A DNA stretch of 64,000 nt, taken from contig CAYRIU010000046.1 of assembly GCA_964424615.1 (NCBI GenBank), forward strand, positions 525 to 64,524. The letters are read 5' to 3'. This DNA is from an uncultured Gammaproteobacteria bacterium. Lineage in GTDB: Bacteria > Patescibacteriota > Patescibacteriia > UBA1558 > GWA2-36-10. Numbering within the stretch: the stretch's first letter is position 1; every line of letters starts with the position of its first letter. This document shows positions 13,288 to 33,868 of this stretch, in pieces. The notes under the pieces are model-generated. The model saw nothing but the letters and a program-made list of their open reading frames with translations, was not told the DNA's origin and ran no database searches. Position numbers and translations under genes: made by a program.

Positions 13288-13355
13288 TTGGGCGAATGCA
13301 GCGCTCTAGCCTCCGCCTCCGCCAGTTGGCGGATGGCGGATGAGCTAACGGCCCC
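13288..13355 (-). pseudogene. Degenerate 5-prime-half copy of tRNA-Ala (acceptor, D-arm, anticodon stem) with a GC-rich palindrome inserted in the D-loop. The copy is truncated after the anticodon loop.
   Basis: Minus-strand reading GGGGCCGTTAGCTCA[TCCGCCATCCGCCAACTGGCGGAGGCGGAGG]CTAGAGCGCTGCATTCGCCCAA, compared with the intact GGGCCAATAGCTCAATTTGGTAGAGCACTGCATTCGCAT. Confidence 0.65.
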
Positions 13356-17025: not shown

Positions 17026-17102
17026 TGGTGGGCATAGATGGACTTGAACCATCGACCCCGACTTTATAAGAGTCGTGCTCTAACCGACTGAGCTATATGC
17101 CC
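17026..17102 (-). tRNA. tRNA with anticodon UAU, probably tRNA-Ile reading AUA; CCA encoded.
   Basis: Hand-folded: acceptor GGGCATA/TATGCCC, anticodon loop CTTATAA, T-arm GATGGTTCAAGTCCATC. Confidence 0.6.
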
Positions 17103-20371: not shown

Positions 20372-20690
20372 GCGTCCCGCCCAAGTAGCTGAATACTTGC
20401 GTCAACAAATCAACAACATCATCCTCCGTGACTTCGAGCCACCTATGGGTACATTGATATCTGTCACTGAGGTCACTATCTCTCCGGATCTCAAAAACGC
20501 TACTGCCTATGTCAGTATCATCCCGACCAATCATCTTGGCTCTGGTCTACAAGCTATCAAAAGATTTGCTGGTCATATCCAAAAAGAAGTTGGTCGCAAT
20601 CTGACTATGCGTGGCACTCCTCATATAGACTTTCTGCTCGATGAGAGAGATATAAAGTATGGGAAGATTGATGAAGCCTTGAAACAATAA
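20352..20690 (+). CDS. rbfA: Ribosome-binding factor A.
   Basis: 112 aa KH-like RbfA (ISVTEVTISPDLKNATAYVS) directly following infB with a 20-nt overlap. Confidence 0.8.
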   Translation: MKRPMSKRPAQVAEYLRQQINNIILRDFEPPMGTLISVTEVTISPDLKNATAYVSIIPTNHLGSGLQAIKRFAGHIQKEVGRNLTMRGTPHIDFLLDERDIKYGKIDEALKQ

Positions 20691-20693
20691 ATA

Positions 20694-20751
20694 TACCCCC
20701 CTCTTTTTCTCCCCCTAAATTAGGGGGAGATGTCCGCTAAGGACAGTGGGG
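20694..20751 (+). repeat. 58-nt palindrome-containing dispersed repeat (copy A): TACCCCCCTCTTTTTCTCCCCCTAAATTAGGGGGAGATGTCCGCTAAGGACAGTGGGG.
   Basis: About 90% identical to the reverse complement of 33812-33868. Internal palindrome CCCCCTAAATTAGGGGG and complementary termini CCCCCTCT/AGAGGGGG. Confidence 0.75.
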
Positions 20752-20758
20752 ATAATAA

Positions 20759-20790
20759 AAAAACACTCCAGGAAATTGTAGTGTTTTTTT
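20759..20790 (+). terminator. Rho-independent terminator after rbfA (AAACACTCCAGG...TAGTGTTTTTTT).
   Basis: Hairpin plus T7. A near-identical terminator is at 21158-21187. Confidence 0.55.
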
Positions 20791-20884
20791 CTTGAAATTA
20801 ATATGCTTGACAATTGATGCTTATTTGTTTAGGATTATTTTGTTTTCCTGGCACTAGATAATCTTGACTCAAGGAGGACACACC

Positions 20885-21073
20885 GTGAACAAAAAAAAGA
20901 GACAACGCCCACGGCGTAAACATCTTGGCCGAGTGTCACCTGGCAAGCGAGCCATCAAGTTGGCGAGACGCTTAGCTAAGCGTCAATTGGCAAATGAGAA
21001 GTTGGCCAACACCATGACCACCAGACGACGCGCGGAAGCCTACCTCAAAACCCGCGATGACGGGTTTGCGTAG
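20885..21073 (+). CDS. Hypothetical small, highly basic (K/R-rich) 62-aa protein in a GC-rich mini-cassette. GTG start 6 nt after an AAGGAGGA SD.
   Basis: Canonical SD at 20871-20878. Bounded by terminators on both sides. The composition is much more GC-rich than its neighbours. Confidence 0.45.
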   Translation: MNKKKRQRPRRKHLGRVSPGKRAIKLARRLAKRQLANEKLANTMTTRRRAEAYLKTRDDGFA

Positions 21074-21098
21074 CCCTATCGGCGTCACATAGACGCTT

Positions 21099-21146
21099 TC
21101 TGCCTCTTCAAGATACCTCCAATGGTACTATAGAGGCAGATTTTTT
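21099..21146 (+). terminator. Rho-independent terminator (CTGCCTCT...AGAGGCAG plus T7).
   Basis: 10-bp stem followed by ATTTTTTT. Confidence 0.5.
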
Positions 21147-21157
21147 TCTAAAAAATT

Positions 21158-21187
21158 ATTAGTCAAAAAACACCCCAGAAAATTGGA
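21158..21187 (+). terminator. Rho-independent terminator, near-duplicate of 20759-20790.
   Basis: AACACCCCAGAAAATTGGAGTGTTTTTTT. Confidence 0.5.
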
Positions 21188-21238
21188 GTGTTTTTTTGAT
21201 TTAAAAAATATGCAGGGATTAATACATAGATAAAATAT

Positions 21239-23077
21239 TTATGATTGTAATTTTATTTCAATTTGTTCCACTAATTTTTTCAACGATGGGAAATTTTCTT
21301 CAAAGGCACTTTTACTTGGAGAAAAATCGTCTGATATTTTATTTTTAAATTTTTCTATAATTATTTCATTAAATTTATTTTCTTTCTTTAGAAAAATTTT
21401 TATTTGCTCAATAAATGGAGCATCTGTTAACATTATCACACAGTCATCTAAAAACTCCTCTTTATAAAATTCTTTGAATTTGCTTTCTACAAAATCTTTT
21501 TCTAATAAATCTTCTATAGTACCTTCGTTCTTAAAGCTAGCTACTAAATCTCTAATGGTAAAAACAGAATTTTTATCATAAACGCCGGCAATTTTTAGAA
21601 TTTTATCCCTATATCCTTTTCCCTCCAAATCATCGTCAGTTACTACTAAAATTTTTATATCATCATAATTAAATTTAGTAGCAATTTGAACAATATTACT
21701 ACCAATTCCATTAGTAATACCGAATTGCAATCCTTTTAAATGCAATGATTTTTGTAATATTATTTTATCAGACTGCCCCTCAACAAGAATCCTGTGTGGT
21801 ATCAACAAATCTTTATAAACATTTATGCCAAATGCCAACTCCAATACTTCGTCATCCCTAAGATCCTCTTCACTTCTTATTTCTTTTTTTTCGGTTATTG
21901 CCGCATTATTTTTTCTAATAATTATATTTCTTTCTTTGGTTTTTTGATCTACTAAAAATGGGGAATGAGTAGAAATAAATACATAATTATCTTTACCTAT
22001 ACTTAATAACTGCTCTTTTAAATCCCTAATACCCGATGGATGTAGATGTGCCTCTGGTTCGTCGATGATAATTAGTTTATCTTTTTTCCTAAACTTTTCA
22101 GTTTCTATAGATAAGGACAAAATTAAAGACATAAACTGTTTGAAACCCTCACTTCTTACATTCATTTTATAAAAATTATGTTCATTTTTTTTACCATCAT
22201 CTACTATTGAGACATTACATTTCTTACTATCCGTTATTTCTATATCGATTTTAATTTTATGTTTCCATTTATTATTGATGTATTTTGTAGCCTCATCTGA
22301 CAGTGTTGTGCTCAGTTTTCTTCTTAAATTAAAATCCGAAGTACTGTCTATTTCTTTTTTTATCTTATCTTCCGTGTCATACCCAGCTAAAGCAAAAATG
22401 TTTTTAAGTGGTTTATTTTTATTTACATCTGCTTTAAATTCTTCTAAATTAACCTCCGTAATTAAATATTCGTCAGATGGCTTCCAAAAAGATGTCTGTG
22501 GTTCATACTTCTGAATTATGTCAATAATTTTATTTTCAAAATATTCTTTAAACACATCTTTTGTAAACTCTACATATGTATTCTGAATATCATTAAATTT
22601 ACTAACCTCATAAGACTTACTATTTATATTTTGACCATCAACATTATTAGTTATTAATTCTTTAATAAATATATTCTCCGTTATTTCCTCTATATTGAAA
22701 GTATATTCTACTTCAAAATGGTTTGCTCCTTCCTGCAAATACACATGCTTAACAATACTATTAATTTTAAAATTAAAAATTTTATCATTTAATATTTCTT
22801 TTTTTATTAAACTAGAATATGTTTCTACTTGTTCAAAACTTAAATAAAACCATAAATCAATGGGTTTTTTCTGTTCATCTTTTTGATTATGCATGTCATT
22901 ATAATCAAATTCTTCGTTAGGAACATTAAAAAAAGACATAGCCTGTAAAATATTACTTTTACCAGACTCATTAATTCCTAAAAACATGGTAGTATAACTA
23001 TTACCGTATTTCTTTACATCAAACTCAATATGTTGAATTGATTTAAAATTCTCAATAATAATTTTTGTAATCTTCAT
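21239..23077 (-). CDS. OLD-family ATP-dependent endonuclease, class 1 (N-terminal ABC-type ATPase fused to a C-terminal TOPRIM domain). Candidate anti-phage defence gene.
   Basis: Walker A GINESGKSN; ABC signature-like SEGFKQF; Walker B/H-loop LIIIDEPEAHLHP. TOPRIM motifs RILVEGQSDKIIL and VVTDDDLEGK. 612 aa. Extremely AT-rich coding sequence. Confidence 0.75.
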   Translation of the reverse strand: MKITKIIIENFKSIQHIEFDVKKYGNSYTTMFLGINESGKSNILQAMSFFNVPNEEFDYNDMHNQKDEQKKPIDLWFYLSFEQVETYSSLIKKEILNDKIFNFKINSIVKHVYLQEGANHFEVEYTFNIEEITENIFIKELITNNVDGQNINSKSYEVSKFNDIQNTYVEFTKDVFKEYFENKIIDIIQKYEPQTSFWKPSDEYLITEVNLEEFKADVNKNKPLKNIFALAGYDTEDKIKKEIDSTSDFNLRRKLSTTLSDEATKYINNKWKHKIKIDIEITDSKKCNVSIVDDGKKNEHNFYKMNVRSEGFKQFMSLILSLSIETEKFRKKDKLIIIDEPEAHLHPSGIRDLKEQLLSIGKDNYVFISTHSPFLVDQKTKERNIIIRKNNAAITEKKEIRSEEDLRDDEVLELAFGINVYKDLLIPHRILVEGQSDKIILQKSLHLKGLQFGITNGIGSNIVQIATKFNYDDIKILVVTDDDLEGKGYRDKILKIAGVYDKNSVFTIRDLVASFKNEGTIEDLLEKDFVESKFKEFYKEEFLDDCVIMLTDAPFIEQIKIFLKKENKFNEIIIEKFKNKISDDFSPSKSAFEENFPSLKKLVEQIEIKLQS

Positions 23078-23270
23078 AATTTTATTAATTTATTACGCGT
23101 GGTGCCCTATGCCCACATCTTAAAAAGACAACATGCTTTGATTTATAAAATAATCGCTATCAAATAAAAAATAAGCAAAGCCGTATTCCCAACTAACAAT
23201 GTATCTTTATACCTACTGCCATCTTACTCCCAATACAAAAAAAGACAATATATGACGTAAATAGTATATA

Positions 23271-23421
23271 GGACGAAAGACGCCGAATGTTTCTATCGTC
23301 ATTGCGAGCGAACGCAGTGAGCGCGGCAATCTACCAACTTATAGATTGCTTCGTCTCCGCCATCCGCCCACTGGCGGAGGCGGATCCTCGCAATGACGGT
23401 AAATAGACTAGGCGTCTTTCC
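23271..23421. repeat. About 150-nt nested inverted-repeat structure. Outer stem GGACGAAAGACGCC/GGCGTCTTTCC, inner stem CGTCATTGCGAG/CTCGCAATGACG, and an embedded GC palindrome CTCCGCCATCCGCCCACTGGCGGAGGCGGAT. Candidate structured RNA or complex MITE.
   Basis: The stems were found by eye. The embedded palindrome is one mismatch different from the element inserted in the tRNA-Ala pseudo-copy (13311-13340). Confidence 0.5.
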
Positions 23422-23428
23422 TTTAATA

Positions 23429-23457
23429 TTGACTCTCCCGCAATCTCAGGCTATAAT
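23429..23457 (+). promoter_or_regulatory. Consensus sigma70 promoter (TTGACT, 17 nt, TATAAT) driving a leaderless or near-leaderless nrnA transcript.
   Basis: The -10 ends 8 nt before the nrnA ATG at 23466. Confidence 0.55.
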
Positions 23458-23465
23458 ACTCGGCT

Positions 23466-24428
23466 ATGTTGAATTACCATAACATCAGTCAATCTATACT
23501 ACAGGAGATAAAAAAAGCTGAAAAAATCTTGATCATCTCCCACCAAAAGCCCGATGGTGACACCCTAGGGGCGAATTTAGCTTTGCGCAAATATCTCTCC
23601 AATATAGGTAAGGATGTTCACTCTTTTTGTGATAGCGATATACCTGACTATTTAAAATTCTTGCCCGGCAGTCATCTAGTCACTAGCGACCATCTACTTT
23701 TTACCAAAAAATTTGATCTAGTCATCACTGTGGACTGCGCTACTATAGAGCTGACTGCTGCTCAGCATCTGCTGGCAGTCATGCCCCAGCATCTACTCAT
23801 CAATATAGATCACCATAGCTCCAATCCTGAGTACGCTGATATCAATCTCGTCCTGACTGAGGCATCATCTACTGCTGAGGTCATCTACAGACTACTCGAT
23901 GATTGGCAGGCGACTTTTGATCAAGAGATAGCGACCAACCTCGCCTGTGGTCTGATCACTGATACTGGTGGTTTCAAAAATCCAGCTACTAGCTACAGCT
24001 CACTAAATATTGCAGCTAGGCTATTTGACCACGGTGCCAATCTACACCAGCTATTAAAGATCACCAATCGCGGACAAAATATCGACCATCTCATCCTCTG
24101 GGGCAGGGCTCTCGAGCGTCTCCAAAAAGTAGACAAGTACAATTTGGTTTTTACCTACCTGACTCAAGACGATCTAGCCGAGACCAACAATGACGAATCA
24201 GCCATCGGTGGCATTTCCAATTTTTTACATATCTTGAAAGAAGGAAAAATCATATTGGTCCTGACTGAGACAAAAAATAATCTGATCAAAGGATCACTAC
24301 GCACAACTTCTGAAATAGATGTTGCCAAAATAGCTCAACTGTTTGGCGGTGGTGGCCACAAAAAAGCTGCTGGCTTTTCCTTGCCAGGCAAGCTGGTATG
24401 TGATAATAATAAATTGAAAGTGGTATAA
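23466..24428 (+). CDS. nrnA: Bifunctional oligoribonuclease/pAp-phosphatase NrnA (DHH-DHHA1).
   Basis: DHH motif (NIDHHSSN), DxD (DGDTLG), DHHA1 GGGH (FGGGGHKKAAG). Confidence 0.8.
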   Translation: MLNYHNISQSILQEIKKAEKILIISHQKPDGDTLGANLALRKYLSNIGKDVHSFCDSDIPDYLKFLPGSHLVTSDHLLFTKKFDLVITVDCATIELTAAQHLLAVMPQHLLINIDHHSSNPEYADINLVLTEASSTAEVIYRLLDDWQATFDQEIATNLACGLITDTGGFKNPATSYSSLNIAARLFDHGANLHQLLKITNRGQNIDHLILWGRALERLQKVDKYNLVFTYLTQDDLAETNNDESAIGGISNFLHILKEGKIILVLTETKNNLIKGSLRTTSEIDVAKIAQLFGGGGHKKAAGFSLPGKLVCDNNKLKVV

Positions 24429-25116: not shown

Positions 25117-25379
25117 CCACAACAAAGAGATTATTCACTTTTGAAATTATTTGTGCTATTATTTTTCACAAGGTGAGTTTTGAGGATCAAAACATCCTCA
25201 TTTCTAAATTCTCATCCCTAAGACCATCGGTGTATAGCACCATTCATAGCCGAAAGACTTTGGACAATGCTATGCTTAAGCCGATGGTCTTTGTTTTGAA
25301 ATAAAAAAAGAGCGGCGCCTCCTACACCGAAGTGTAATGGATGGCGCCGCTTCTGGTCAGCCAGTAGCAGTGTGTGCTA

Positions 25380-25940
25380 CTAGCTGATCAACTTGCGCTT
25401 GGCGATGATGTTGTGTTCACCGCGAAACTCGAAGACCACTGCCTCCAGAATGTCCAGGGTATGGACATCGCGAAGACCGCAGAGATACGCGGCCAGAATG
25501 ATGAAGGAGCTGTGAAAGACACCAACTCCCATCTCGCCGTCCTCCATGCAGGAGAACATCTGGTGAATGGCCCCCATGGCCTCGACTTCGAAGACGTGCT
25601 GTGCATCGCAGTCGTGAGAAGCCGTGAAAGCCTCCATGACCGAAACGCCGCCAGCGATCAGATCTTCGAACTTCTCGTTGTGCAAGTGCATCAGGGCAGC
25701 ATCGCTACCCAAGCCATCGATCACGGGATGACGACAGCTCTGCGAGAAGGCCGGATTCTCGACCACCATGACCGCAGCTGTCTCGATAGTCGCCACCAGA
25801 GGCGACGTGAAAATGTGCTGCACCATCTGGTTGCGATGATGGAAGGCTCCAAAGCCATGAGCCATATCCAGGCCCATGGTGGAAATGTGCCGACCGTCCT
25901 CAGCCAGCTCGGAGTGAACGTGCAGAGTCAAGATTTTCAC
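25380..25940 (-). CDS. Hypothetical His-rich (putative metal-binding) 186-aa protein in a GC-rich cassette. GTG start with a GGAGGA SD.
   Basis: SD 5 nt upstream of the GTG start. A minus-strand terminator (AGCGGCGCC...GGCGCCGCT plus T-run) lies at 25306-25360. The overlapping plus-strand ORF 25374..25985 is judged an artefact of the high GC content. Confidence 0.45.
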   Translation of the reverse strand: MKILTLHVHSELAEDGRHISTMGLDMAHGFGAFHHRNQMVQHIFTSPLVATIETAAVMVVENPAFSQSCRHPVIDGLGSDAALMHLHNEKFEDLIAGGVSVMEAFTASHDCDAQHVFEVEAMGAIHQMFSCMEDGEMGVGVFHSSFIILAAYLCGLRDVHTLDILEAVVFEFRGEHNIIAKRKLIS

Positions 25941-26069
25941 AGAAATCCTCCGTGTTTACTGTCCATGCCCACCCTAGATTACTAGGGATCCAAGTCGTCA
26001 ATGACTCAGAATTGAGTATTATATGACATTTATGCTATTTTGTCAATACTAGAATTCAAACTCCCTTGA

Positions 26070-33800: not shown

Positions 33801-33811
33801 ATTGTTTTGTA

Positions 33812-33868
33812 CCCCCTCTGTCCTAGCGGACATCTCCCCCTAATTTAGGGGGAGAAGAAGAGGGGGTA
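33812..33868 (-). repeat. 58-nt palindrome-containing dispersed repeat (copy B), in inverted orientation relative to copy A at 20694-20751.
   Basis: The reverse complement reads AATACCCCCTCTTCTTCTCCCCCTAAATTAGGGGGAGATGTCCGCTAGGACAGAGGGGG. Confidence 0.75.

What the first reader, a model, noticed from the sequence alone, without database searches (positions are those of the whole stretch)
21239..23077. Stand-alone class-1 OLD-family ATPase/TOPRIM nuclease: candidate anti-phage defence gene in a reduced genome
The 612-aa protein is a fusion of two domains. The N-terminal half is an ABC-type ATPase (GINESGKSN, SEGFKQF, LIIIDEPEAHLHP). The C-terminal half is a TOPRIM nuclease domain (VEGQSDK, TDDDLEGK).

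This is the architecture of P2 Old and of class-1 OLD nucleases. It is related to Gabija GajA and PARIS AriA/AriB, which are established defence modules. No UvrD-like partner is adjacent, which argues for class 1 rather than Gabija.

Its coding sequence is even more AT-rich than the flanks. It is bracketed by a GC-rich small basic-protein cassette on one side and the 150-nt structured inverted-repeat element on the other. This suggests acquisition as part of a small defence islet.
Basis: partly seen in the sequence, partly recalled or inferred. Interest (0 to 1): 0.55.

Follow-up and report, generated by a model that had tools for sequence, protein, structure and literature searches.

The report
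Stand-alone OLD-family defence nuclease gene
This is an intact, recently acquired single gene for an OLD-family ATPase-nuclease, most likely an anti-phage defence protein, sitting in a variable slot of a small Patescibacteria (CPR) genome; it is a solid but ordinary member of a known kind of system.

Summary
Window 21239-23077 (-) encodes a 612-aa protein with an ABC-type ATPase (Pfam AAA_15, E 6e-24) followed by a TOPRIM nuclease. Single-sequence TOPRIM hits are sub-threshold. The domain is nonetheless secured by seven conserved catalytic-type positions across 74 homologues (six invariant, T520 at least 90% conserved), a confident AlphaFold model and Foldseek top hits to GajA and Thermus OLD.

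The gene is accessory. It has the lowest GC of 36 long ORFs (25.8% vs 38.6%). It is absent from all 82 related infB loci examined, about 50 of which keep the full gene order, including relatives with 95-97% identical RNase Y. Those relatives carry unrelated cargo in the same rbfA-DHH slot.

Eleven homologue contexts show no UvrD/GajB helicase or retron RT. Four are next to or inside R-M operons. By context the gene is Class 1 (stand-alone). By sequence and C-terminal architecture it is closer to Class 2 GajA.

The "defence islet" idea is not supported. The inverted-repeat element belongs to the host backbone, the small basic ORF is an orphan, and no other defence gene lies nearby.

Verdict: new member of a known kind. 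Defence function is inferred, not shown. Interest is modest.

The parts
21239..23077 (-). Complete CDS of the 612-aa OLD-family ATPase-TOPRIM nuclease (stop codon included)
   Evidence: ORF list and translation. Pfam AAA_15 6e-24 and AAA_21 1e-15. PADLOC Old 6.9e-30, AriA 3e-27, GajA 4e-20. 600+ full-length homologues. AF2 model pLDDT 89.4.
21878..23077 (-). ABC-type ATPase region (residues 1-400): Walker A K40/S41, signature R308-S309-E-G, Walker B D339-E340, H-loop H371
   Evidence: All of these residues are invariant in 74 homologues. AAA_15 spans 1-376. Foldseek hits to Rad50/SMC heads and to the GajA/TsOLD ATPase.
22268..22768 (-). Insertion in the ATPase (residues ~104-270): four beta-strands plus a helical bundle. 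It occupies the position of the OLD dimerisation domain.
   Evidence: AF2 secondary structure. The position matches the dimerisation-domain insertion described for TsOLD and GajA (PMC10568477). The oligomerisation role is inferred.
21545..21793 (-). TOPRIM core (residues 429-511): E433, D437, D481-x-D483
   Evidence: These residues are invariant in the family. Alternating beta/alpha elements 429-511 in the model. Pfam OLD-like_TOPRIM and Toprim hits at 430-503 are sub-threshold. GajA alignment runs through 499-509. The P2 Old alignment includes the EG motif.
21239..21520 (-). C-terminal helical domain (residues 520-612) carrying T520-x-E522 (metal B-type ligands), D523 and K578
   Evidence: Six helices in the model. 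E522, D523 and K578 are invariant and T520 is at least 90% conserved. The spacing mirrors BpOLD T506-x-E508 and K562 within its 505-594 helical domain (PMC6755086). The correspondence rests on motif and spacing, not on a residue-level structural superposition.
23078..23224 (-). OLD-specific 5' flank (presumed promoter/leader). No clear Shine-Dalgarno sequence.
   Evidence: No homology to relatives L015, L099 or L100 until about 23225-23281. Sequence. Promoter function is not shown.
21165..21197 (.). A-tract/hairpin/T-tract bidirectional terminator 42 nt downstream of the OLD stop. It corresponds to the ancestral rbfA terminator.
   Evidence: Inverted repeat and direct-repeat copy. 85% match to the hairpin that directly follows rbfA in L015.

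Best explanation
The gene encodes a functional, single-gene OLD-family nuclease. This Patescibacteria lineage acquired it horizontally into a hypervariable slot between rbfA and the DHH-phosphoesterase gene. It most likely acts as a stand-alone anti-phage / anti-mobile-element defence.

Shown here: the ABC-ATPase + TOPRIM + C-terminal helical domain architecture with every catalytic residue conserved, the accessory status, and the lack of any conserved partner gene.

Inferred from characterised OLD proteins (TsOLD, BpOLD, GajA, Vc OLD, P2 Old): the protein oligomerises through the domain inserted in the ATPase. The ATPase acts as the nucleotide- or infection-sensing switch. When triggered, the TOPRIM site cleaves nucleic acid by two-metal catalysis (metal A: E433/D481/D483; metal B: D437/T520/E522; K578 stabilising the transition state). 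That stops phage replication directly or through abortive infection.

Because the catalytic region is GajA/BpOLD-like, DNA nicking or degradation is the more likely activity (my estimate ~55%). tRNA cleavage as in P2 Old or PARIS AriB is less likely (~25%).
For: Domain calls: AAA_15 6e-24, AAA_21 1e-15. PADLOC top hit Old 6.9e-30.

Conservation: K40, S41, R308, S309, D339, E340, H371, E433, D437, D481, D483, E522, D523 and K578 are invariant in 74 homologues; T520 is at least 90% conserved. This pattern equals TsOLD metal A E377/D431/D433 and metal B D381/S478/E480 (PMC7049728). It also equals BpOLD E400/E404/D455/D457/T506/E508/K562 (PMC6755086).

Structure: AF2 pLDDT 89.4. Foldseek gives GajA 7e-17, TsOLD 3e-16, retron-Eco8 OLD 4e-11. 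hhalign to P2 Old gives 97% probability, E 7e-11.

Accessory status: there is no OLD homologue in any of 80 relatives' infB loci, about 50 of which keep the full up384-infB-rbfA-DHH-clpP-rny-ymdB order. The closest relatives carry different cargo in the slot: L099 (IF2 90%, Rny 95%), L100 (Rny 97%) and L015. The CDS has the lowest GC in the window (z -3.05). It is also lower in GC than the flanks in all 8 other genomes checked.

Defence association: homologues sit next to Tsp45I R + MTase (L005/6), inside an R-M/Fic/HsdS islet that splits a V-ATPase operon (L007), between hsdM/rhuM and hsdR (L012), and between hsdS plus an AriAB-like gene and hsdR (L101). One is near Cas1 and a recombinase in Nitrosomonas (L010).

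Single-gene OLDs are known to defend: Vc OLD (PMC12392090) and P2 Old (PMC12445682).
Against: There is no experimental evidence for this clade or for this organism. Seven of the 12 contexts (the window included) have no defence neighbour, so guilt by association is only partial. The gene has no recognisable Shine-Dalgarno sequence or validated promoter, so expression is unproven. Not all OLD proteins are defensive: archaeal Cran1 is an essential cell-cycle nickase (PMC12796447). The substrate (DNA vs tRNA) and the trigger cannot be deduced from sequence. No close homologue is found on known phages, plasmids or IMG/VR contigs, so the vehicle of transfer is unknown.
Confidence: 0.75

Rival explanations
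1. It is an orphaned or decaying Gabija GajA (Class 2 OLD) that has lost its GajB helicase and is no longer an effective defence.
For: Among solved structures the family is closest to GajA by sequence (profile E 1.3e-15, against 1.8e-6 for Class 1 TsOLD). It has the Class-2-type T-x-E/Lys pattern and a C-terminal helical domain. In Gabija both genes are needed for defence (PMC10568477).
Against: None of the 12 independent contexts has a UvrD/PcrA-like gene next to it. The family comprises 327 clusters at 50% identity with E <= 1e-30, nearly all full length, and all catalytic residues are invariant. That indicates a stably maintained single-gene family under selection, not decay. Identity to GajA is only 16-18%.
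Confidence: 0.07
2. It is a housekeeping genome-maintenance or cell-cycle ATPase-nickase (RecF/SbcC-like, or Cran1-like), not a defence gene.
For: Weak N-terminal similarity to SMC_N/RecF and Foldseek hits to Rad50/SMC heads. It is embedded among housekeeping genes (infB, rbfA, clpP, rny). Cran1 shows that OLD proteins can be co-opted (PMC12796447).
Against: It is absent from all 82 related loci examined, including relatives with 95-97% identical RNase Y. GC is anomalously low here and in 8 other hosts. Its phyletic distribution is patchy, from CPR to Nitrosomonas. It is repeatedly embedded in R-M operons. RecF/SMC scores are far below their cut-offs.
Confidence: 0.05
3. It is a selfish addiction or competition module (a toxin-like nuclease that stabilises a mobile element, or is used against competing elements or the host bacterium of this likely episymbiont), rather than a classical anti-phage defence.
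For: The gene is horizontally acquired, AT-rich, single-gene and sits in a hypervariable slot. AAA_21 is shared with AbiEii-type toxin families. An identical copy (L003) appears joined to a different upstream gene.
Against: No integrase, transposase, antitoxin-like partner or element boundaries surround it. The L003 junction ends exactly at the terminus of a repeat unit and may be an assembly join. No close relatives occur on plasmids or viral contigs.
Confidence: 0.08

Closest known systems
Class 1 OLD nucleases (P2 Old; Thermus scotoductus OLD, PDB 6P74; Vibrio cholerae Vc OLD)
   Same: Single stand-alone gene in variable neighbourhoods. N-terminal ABC ATPase with an inserted domain, plus a C-terminal TOPRIM. 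Two-metal ligand set conserved. Homology to P2 Old is supported (hhalign 97%). Foldseek to 6P74 gives E 3e-16.
   Different: Only remote sequence similarity: no tblastn hit to any phage, P2 included, and TsOLD profile E only 1.8e-6. The protein is longer, 612 aa against the 500-600 aa used for Class 1. It has a ~90-aa C-terminal helical domain with a conserved Lys, whereas TsOLD lacks that domain and uses an Arg. The ABC signature R-S-E-G is invariant here, whereas it is degenerate in Class 1.
Class 2 OLD / Gabija GajA (B. cereus GajA, PDB 8SM3; B. pseudomallei OLD CTR, PDB 6NK8)
   Same: Best sequence and fold match among solved structures. Same catalytic pattern E / +4 acidic / DxD / T-x-E / Lys ~55 residues later, with a six-helix C-terminal domain. 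Similar length.
   Different: No GajB (UvrD/PcrA-like) gene here or next to any of 11 sampled homologues. Only 16-18% identity. PADLOC GajA models score lower than the Old model.
Class 4 OLD / PARIS (AriA + AriB) and fused AriAB
   Same: The ABC ATPase matches the AriA models strongly (3e-27). Like PARIS and other embedded systems, homologues are often found inside Type I R-M loci.
   Different: ATPase and TOPRIM are fused in one 612-aa protein. No DUF4435-type TOPRIM hit. The AriAB fused model scores only 2.7e-12. In L101 a separate AriAB-like gene sits beside the homologue, which shows they are distinct families.
Class 3 OLD (retron Eco8 effector)
   Same: Same overall fold (Foldseek 9lp9_B, 4e-11) and weak NCBIfam similarity.
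   Different: No reverse transcriptase or ncRNA nearby. The NCBIfam score of 31.8 is far below the 250-bit cut-off.

Membership tests
OLD family (ATPase-TOPRIM nucleases) | N-terminal ABC-type ATPase with Walker A Lys, Walker B acidic residues and an H-loop | tested here: met
   AAA_15 6e-24 over residues 1-376. K40, D339, E340 and H371 are invariant in 74 homologues. Foldseek hits to ABC/SMC/Rad50 heads.
OLD family (ATPase-TOPRIM nucleases) | C-terminal TOPRIM domain with a conserved Glu and a DxD motif | tested here: met
   E433 and D481-x-D483 are invariant. Alternating beta/alpha fold at 429-511. The full-length Foldseek alignments to GajA and TsOLD span ~580-680 columns and therefore include this region. 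Caveat: the single-sequence Pfam OLD-like_TOPRIM (19.6 bits, cut-off 23.2) and Toprim (17.5 bits, cut-off 23.1) hits are below threshold.
OLD family (ATPase-TOPRIM nucleases) | Second (metal B) site and a basic transition-state residue | tested here: met
   D437, E522 and K578 are invariant and T520 is at least 90% conserved. Their spacing matches BpOLD E404/T506/E508/K562 and TsOLD D381/S478/E480. This rests on motif correspondence, not on structural superposition or biochemistry.
OLD family (ATPase-TOPRIM nucleases) | Metal-dependent nuclease and ATPase activity | not testable with these tools
   Requires purified protein.
Class 1 OLD | Stand-alone gene with no conserved partner (the definition used by Schiltz 2019/2020 and Dot 2023) | tested here: met
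   The window plus 11 homologue contexts contain no adjacent UvrD-like helicase, RT or separate TOPRIM gene.
Class 1 OLD | Shorter protein (~500-600 aa) lacking the helical domain of Class 2 | tested here: not met
   612 aa here, and the family is mostly 600-621 aa. The model has a six-helix domain at 521-611. Class 1 length range from PMC12392090. TsOLD lacks the helical domain.
Class 2 OLD / Gabija | [quoted passage not shown] | tested here: not met
   Downstream of the gene are a terminator and a convergent 62-aa ORF, then rbfA. No helicase follows any sampled homologue.
Class 2 OLD / Gabija | TOPRIM plus a C-terminal helical domain supplying T-x-E and a catalytic Lys | tested here: met
   T520-x-E522 and K578 lie in a helical region 521-611. 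GajA is the best PDB sequence hit, 1.3e-15.
Class 3 OLD (retron) | Adjacent reverse transcriptase and msr/msd ncRNA | tested here: not met
   No RT ORF in the neighbourhood. No Rfam hit above threshold at 20600-23600. NCBIfam retron_eff_Eco8 scores 31.8 bits against a cut-off of 250.
Class 4 OLD / PARIS | Separate AriA ATPase and AriB (DUF4435 TOPRIM) genes | tested here: not met
   A single fused ORF with no DUF4435 hit.
Anti-phage defence system (functional category) | Confers protection against phage or plasmid | not testable with these tools
   Only indirect support is available: accessory distribution, R-M association of homologues and the PADLOC Old model hit.

The most novel reading that the evidence does not exclude
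This protein represents an uncharacterised clade of about 300 clusters at 50% identity. The clade would consist of single-gene OLD nucleases that pair a GajA/Class-2-type catalytic C-terminal region with helicase-independent function. Its recurrent embedding between the hsdM/hsdS and hsdR genes of Type I R-M operons (L007, L012, L101) would reflect a functional coupling. In that reading it is a back-up that fires when restriction is disabled by phage anti-restriction proteins, analogous to PARIS, and it can also work alone in minimal CPR genomes.
Probability: 0.15. Interest if true: 0.55.

Novelty: new member of a known kind. Interest (0 to 1): 0.3.

Why it matters
Whether single-gene OLD nucleases defend cells on their own was posed as an open question in a 2023 review (PMC10568477). 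Only a few have since been tested: Vc OLD, E. coli YbjD and P2 Old. None of the characterised examples compared here (P2 Old, TsOLD, GajA, YbjD) is close to this clade. The clade blurs the Class 1 / Class 2 boundary, because it is stand-alone by context but has a GajA-like catalytic region. It is also compact (1.8 kb) and keeps every catalytic residue, which makes it a convenient candidate for testing helicase-independent OLD defence. For CPR biology it is a clean example of a lone defence gene that differs between very close relatives at a defined hypervariable slot in a ~1 Mb genome. Otherwise the finding is a routine annotation.

Tried and rejected
1. L003, an identical OLD copy next to a PfkB gene, looked at first like evidence of mobility. 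Alignment showed that identity ends exactly at the terminus of the 103-nt inverted-repeat unit. A repeat-mediated or assembly join is therefore at least as likely, and I do not count it as evidence.\n\n2. Inverted-repeat element as part of an OLD cassette: rejected, because it is present at the same site in OLD-less L099.\n\n3. Small basic ORF as a partner gene: no Pfam or PADLOC hit, absent next to all homologues, and only 2 homologues overall.\n\n4. Rfam scan of the flanks: only sub-threshold chance hits, Phe_leader and STnc370.\n\n5. Phage, plasmid and IMG/VR searches for a transfer vehicle: no close relatives.\n\n6. The genome-contig scan with the DHH protein gave only one short, uninformative relative. 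The metagenome scan with IF-2 was needed instead.\n\n7. E. coli YbjD comparison: only the N-terminal P-loop aligns (75% probability), which is not informative.\n\n8. Other low-GC ORFs in the window, and the alternative cargo genes in relatives, are not defence genes by PADLOC. The slot is therefore a general variable region, not a defence island.\n\n9. The profile search did not reach the BpOLD/XccOLD CTR entries. The Class-2-like C-terminal assignment therefore rests on motif spacing and predicted helices, not on a residue-level alignment.
Full report
**1. The observation**

The ORF is at window 21239-23077 on the minus strand. It starts with ATG and encodes 612 aa.
- GINESGKSN, residues 34-42
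- SEGFKQF, 309-315
- LIIIDEPEAHLHP, 335-347
- VEGQSDK, 432-438
- TDDDLEGK, 480-487

The CDS has 25.8% GC and 19.7% GC3. The 36 ORFs of at least 200 aa in the window average 38.6% GC (sd 4.2) and 35.6% GC3. The OLD CDS is the lowest of them all, at z = -3.05.

**2. What the protein is**

*Sequence searches.*
- Pfam gives AAA_15 (E 6e-24, residues 1-376) and AAA_21 (1e-15).
- The two TOPRIM models hit residues 430-503 only below their gathering scores: PF20469 at 19.6 bits against a cut-off of 23.2, and PF01751 at 17.5 bits against 23.1. On a single sequence the TOPRIM domain is therefore suggestive but not proven.
- PADLOC ranks the Old model first (6.9e-30), then AriA (3e-27) and GajA (4e-20).
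- NCBIfam hits are all far below their cut-offs. That includes RecF at 15.5 bits against a cut-off of 172.

*Conservation.* The family is large. More than 600 full-length homologues of ~600-621 aa share 48-67% identity with the query. In the 50%-identity representative library, 327 clusters match at E <= 1e-30. An alignment of 74 members shows these invariant residues:
- ATPase: K40, S41, R308, S309, D339, E340, H371
- C-terminal region: E433, D437, D481, D483, E522, D523, K578
- T520 is at least 90% conserved.

The C-terminal set reproduces the experimentally defined OLD two-metal site:

| Role | This protein | TsOLD (PMC7049728) | BpOLD (PMC6755086) |
|---|---|---|---|
| Metal A | E433, D481, D483 | E377, D431, D433 | E400, D455, D457 |
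| Metal B | D437, T520, E522 | D381, S478, E480 | E404, T506, E508 |
| Basic residue | K578 | an Arg | K562 |

*Structure.* An AlphaFold2 model built from the alignment is confident, with mean pLDDT 89.4 and pTM 0.77. It shows:
- an ABC head, with a beta-rich plus helical insertion at ~104-270
- a beta/alpha TOPRIM core at 429-511
- a six-helix C-terminal domain at 521-611

Foldseek against the PDB puts GajA first (8sm3_A, E 7e-17), then Thermus OLD (6p74, 3e-16) and the retron-Eco8 OLD (9lp9_B, 4e-11). Rad50/SMC/PtuA heads follow. Global TM-scores are low (0.3-0.4), as expected when multi-domain proteins differ in how their domains are oriented. The family profile aligns to P2 Old with 97% probability (E 7e-11) from Walker B through the TOPRIM EG motif.

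Conclusion: this is a bona fide OLD-family ATPase-TOPRIM nuclease with an intact catalytic apparatus. The first refutation criterion, RecF/SbcC-like with no TOPRIM, fails.

**3. Which class**

OLD classes are defined mainly by gene neighbourhood (PMC10568477; PMC12392090; PMC12796447):
- Class 1: stand-alone gene
- Class 2: followed by gajB
- Class 3: associated with a retron
- Class 4: split into AriA and AriB

*Context in the window.* The gene is convergent with rbfA and a 62-aa ORF, and divergent from a DHH/DHHA1 phosphoesterase gene.

*Context of eleven homologues:*
- L005/6: directly after a Tsp45I-type R gene and an N6_N4 methyltransferase.
- L007: in a type IIG-like R-M / Fic / OLD / HsdS block that interrupts a V-ATPase operon.
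- L008: alone, after tsf.
- L010 (Nitrosomonas ureae): near Cas1 and a serine recombinase.
- L011: alone.
- L012: hsdM - rhuM - OLD - ... - hsdR.
- L095 and L096: alone.
- L101, the closest homologue at 67% identity: hsdS - AriAB-like fused ATPase-TOPRIM - OLD - hsdR.

None has a UvrD-like helicase, an RT or a separate TOPRIM partner. By context the gene is Class 1.

*Sequence and architecture lean towards Class 2.*
- The family profile hits GajA at 1.3e-15, but the Class 1 structure TsOLD only at 1.8e-6.
- The T-x-E plus Lys (+56) pattern, and a ~90-aa helical domain after the TOPRIM, mirror BpOLD (T506-x-E508, K562, helical domain 505-594). TsOLD lacks that domain.
- At 612 aa the protein is above the 500-600 aa window used for Class 1.

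This is not contradictory. Published phylogenies place Class 2 within Class 1 diversity and show many unclassified clades. I file the protein as a stand-alone OLD of a distinct, uncharacterised clade with a GajA-like catalytic region.

**4. Is it accessory?**

The host is a Patescibacteria (CPR) bacterium. RNase Y homologues at 75-95% identity are named Patescibacteria, Parcubacteria or Komeilibacteria. Relatives sit on 0.8-1.0 Mb contigs.

I fetched 80 infB loci from relatives with IF-2 identity of 36-84% and mapped the window's neighbouring proteins onto them.
- About 50 loci keep the order up384(-) - infB - rbfA - DHH - clpP - rny - ymdB.
- None contains an OLD homologue (tblastn, E 1e-5).

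The rbfA-to-DHH gap is 2,775 nt in the window. In relatives it ranges from ~70 nt to 1.9 kb and holds maf, glmS, a GT39-like membrane protein, small zinc-ribbon ORFs or nothing.

The closest relatives are decisive:

| Relative | Identity to window | Content of the rbfA-DHH slot |
|---|---|---|
| L099 | IF-2 90%, RNase Y 95% | four unrelated minus-strand genes |
| L100 | RNase Y 97%, DHH 92% | a PEP-utilising-enzyme-like gene |
| L015 | IF-2 84% | a 231-aa membrane ORF |

DNA homology to these relatives stops at 20692, which is the rbfA end. It reappears briefly at the terminator 21165-21211 and resumes at ~23225-23281. The OLD-specific DNA is therefore ~21214-23224: the CDS plus ~150 nt of upstream sequence.

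The homologues are also lower in GC than their flanks in all eight other genomes checked, by 4-15 points.

The second refutation criterion, universal syntenic conservation, also fails. The gene is a recent, lineage-specific acquisition in a hypervariable slot.

**5. The "defence islet" idea**

This idea is not supported.

*The inverted-repeat element (23266-23429).*
- It is real and strongly structured, with dG -83 kcal/mol and z -7.2.
- It has an inner 103-nt unit bounded by perfect 12-nt terminal inverted repeats.
- It lies at the same position upstream of the DHH promoter in OLD-less L099. There one internal hairpin differs in sequence but stays paired.
- It therefore belongs to the host backbone.

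*The 62-aa basic ORF (20885-21073).*
- It has a GTG start, an AAGGAGG Shine-Dalgarno sequence, 22 K/R residues and 54% GC.
- It is flanked by an 80%-identical direct repeat of the rbfA terminator hairpin.
- It has no Pfam or PADLOC match.
- It is not found next to any OLD homologue.
- It has two homologues in 5.8 billion proteins.

*The rest of the neighbourhood.* Other low-GC ORFs in the window are transporters or LRR proteins. The alternative cargo in relatives has no PADLOC match.

*The L003 contig.* It joins an identical OLD copy to a PfkB gene. Its identity with the window ends exactly at the repeat unit's terminus, so it may be a repeat-mediated or assembly join.

**6. Mechanism**

*Shown:* an intact ABC ATPase, an intact two-metal TOPRIM site with a conserved Lys, a single gene with no partner, accessory status, and frequent physical association of homologues with R-M systems.

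*Inferred from characterised relatives:*
- oligomerisation through the inserted domain (TsOLD dimer, GajA tetramer)
- an ATPase that gates or senses
- a TOPRIM nuclease that nicks or degrades DNA, as in TsOLD, BpOLD, GajA and Vc OLD, or that cuts tRNA, as in P2 Old

The GajA/BpOLD-like catalytic region makes DNA the more likely substrate. The trigger is unknown.

*Speculative:* the clade recurs inside Type I R-M operons, a known pattern for embedded defences (PMC11411939). That suggests it may back up restriction, as PARIS does.

**7. Novelty and verdict**

This is a correct and well-observed finding, but it is ordinary in kind. The gene is a new member of the OLD family, and source databases already label homologues "predicted ATP-dependent endonuclease of OLD family". 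Mildly interesting aspects:
- its position between Class 1 (by context) and Class 2 (by architecture)
- the clean presence/absence contrast between near-identical CPR genomes
- the embedding of its clade in R-M operons

No close relatives occur in phage, plasmid or IMG/VR collections.

Scores: interest 0.3. Confidence 0.75 that it is a functional stand-alone defence nuclease, and above 0.95 that it is an accessory OLD-family ATPase-TOPRIM protein.

Noticed in passing
window 20691-23465, compared with L015, L099, L100 and ~50 other loci: The rbfA-to-DHH (nrnA-like) intergenic slot is hypervariable across this Patescibacteria lineage. Each close relative carries different, mostly minus-strand and low-GC cargo, or almost nothing (~70 nt). 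None of the alternative cargo matches PADLOC.
   Followed up: yes
window 23266-23429 (inner unit 23297-23398): A highly structured inverted-repeat element (dG -83 kcal/mol, z -7.2) with perfect 12-nt terminal inverted repeats CGTCATTGCGAG/CTCGCAATGACG, just upstream of the DHH promoter. It is present at the same site in L099 with a different but still paired internal hairpin. It is absent in L100 and L015. A 29-nt partial copy lies at 13312-13340, between tRNA-Ala and tRNA-Pro. No Rfam family matches. It could be a MITE-like element or a cis-regulatory element.
   Followed up: partly
window 20885-21073 (+), with promoter-like site 20807-20835: An orphan 62-aa, very basic ORF (22 K/R, 4 D/E) with 54% GC, a strong Shine-Dalgarno sequence (AAGGAGG) and a GTG start. 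There are only two homologues in 5.8 billion proteins, and no Pfam or PADLOC hit. It is bracketed by an 80%-identical direct repeat of a terminator hairpin (20753-20806 and 21160-21213). The second copy corresponds to the rbfA terminator of relative L015.
   Followed up: partly
window 20697-20762 and 33802-33866: A 66-nt repeat (89% identical, in inverted orientation) that contains a short palindrome (CCCCCTAAATTAGGGGG). It is also found in relatives L030, L051 and L099. It looks like a small dispersed repeat.
   Followed up: no
window 23429-23468: The DHH gene has a near-consensus TTGACT-17-TATAAT promoter that is conserved in four relatives. It ends 8 nt before the ATG, with no Shine-Dalgarno sequence, which suggests a leaderless mRNA.
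   Followed up: no
window 17026-17102 (-): A tRNA-Ile gene with anticodon UAU, which is uncommon in bacteria because most decode AUA with a lysidine-modified CAU tRNA.
   Followed up: no
window 25359-25985: A GC-rich (~49%) segment between clpP and rny with long overlapping ORFs on both strands (203 aa on +, 186 aa on -) and no Pfam hit. It is conserved in L100, where a 205-aa minus-strand gene is called, but is replaced by different sequence in L099.
   Followed up: partly
L101 336-3883; L007 4336-11187; L012 5310-15176: Homologues of the OLD gene are embedded inside Type I (or IIG-like) R-M operons. In L101 the homologue sits in tandem with a second, AriAB-like fused ATPase-TOPRIM gene. In L007 the whole R-M/Fic/OLD/HsdS block splits a V-type ATPase operon.
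   Followed up: partly
L003 1-2016, compared with window 23398: A Logan contig carries a 100%-identical OLD gene plus upstream region, joined to a PfkB-kinase gene instead of the DHH gene. The junction falls exactly at the end of the inverted-repeat unit. It could be a real rearrangement or a k-mer assembly join.
   Followed up: partly
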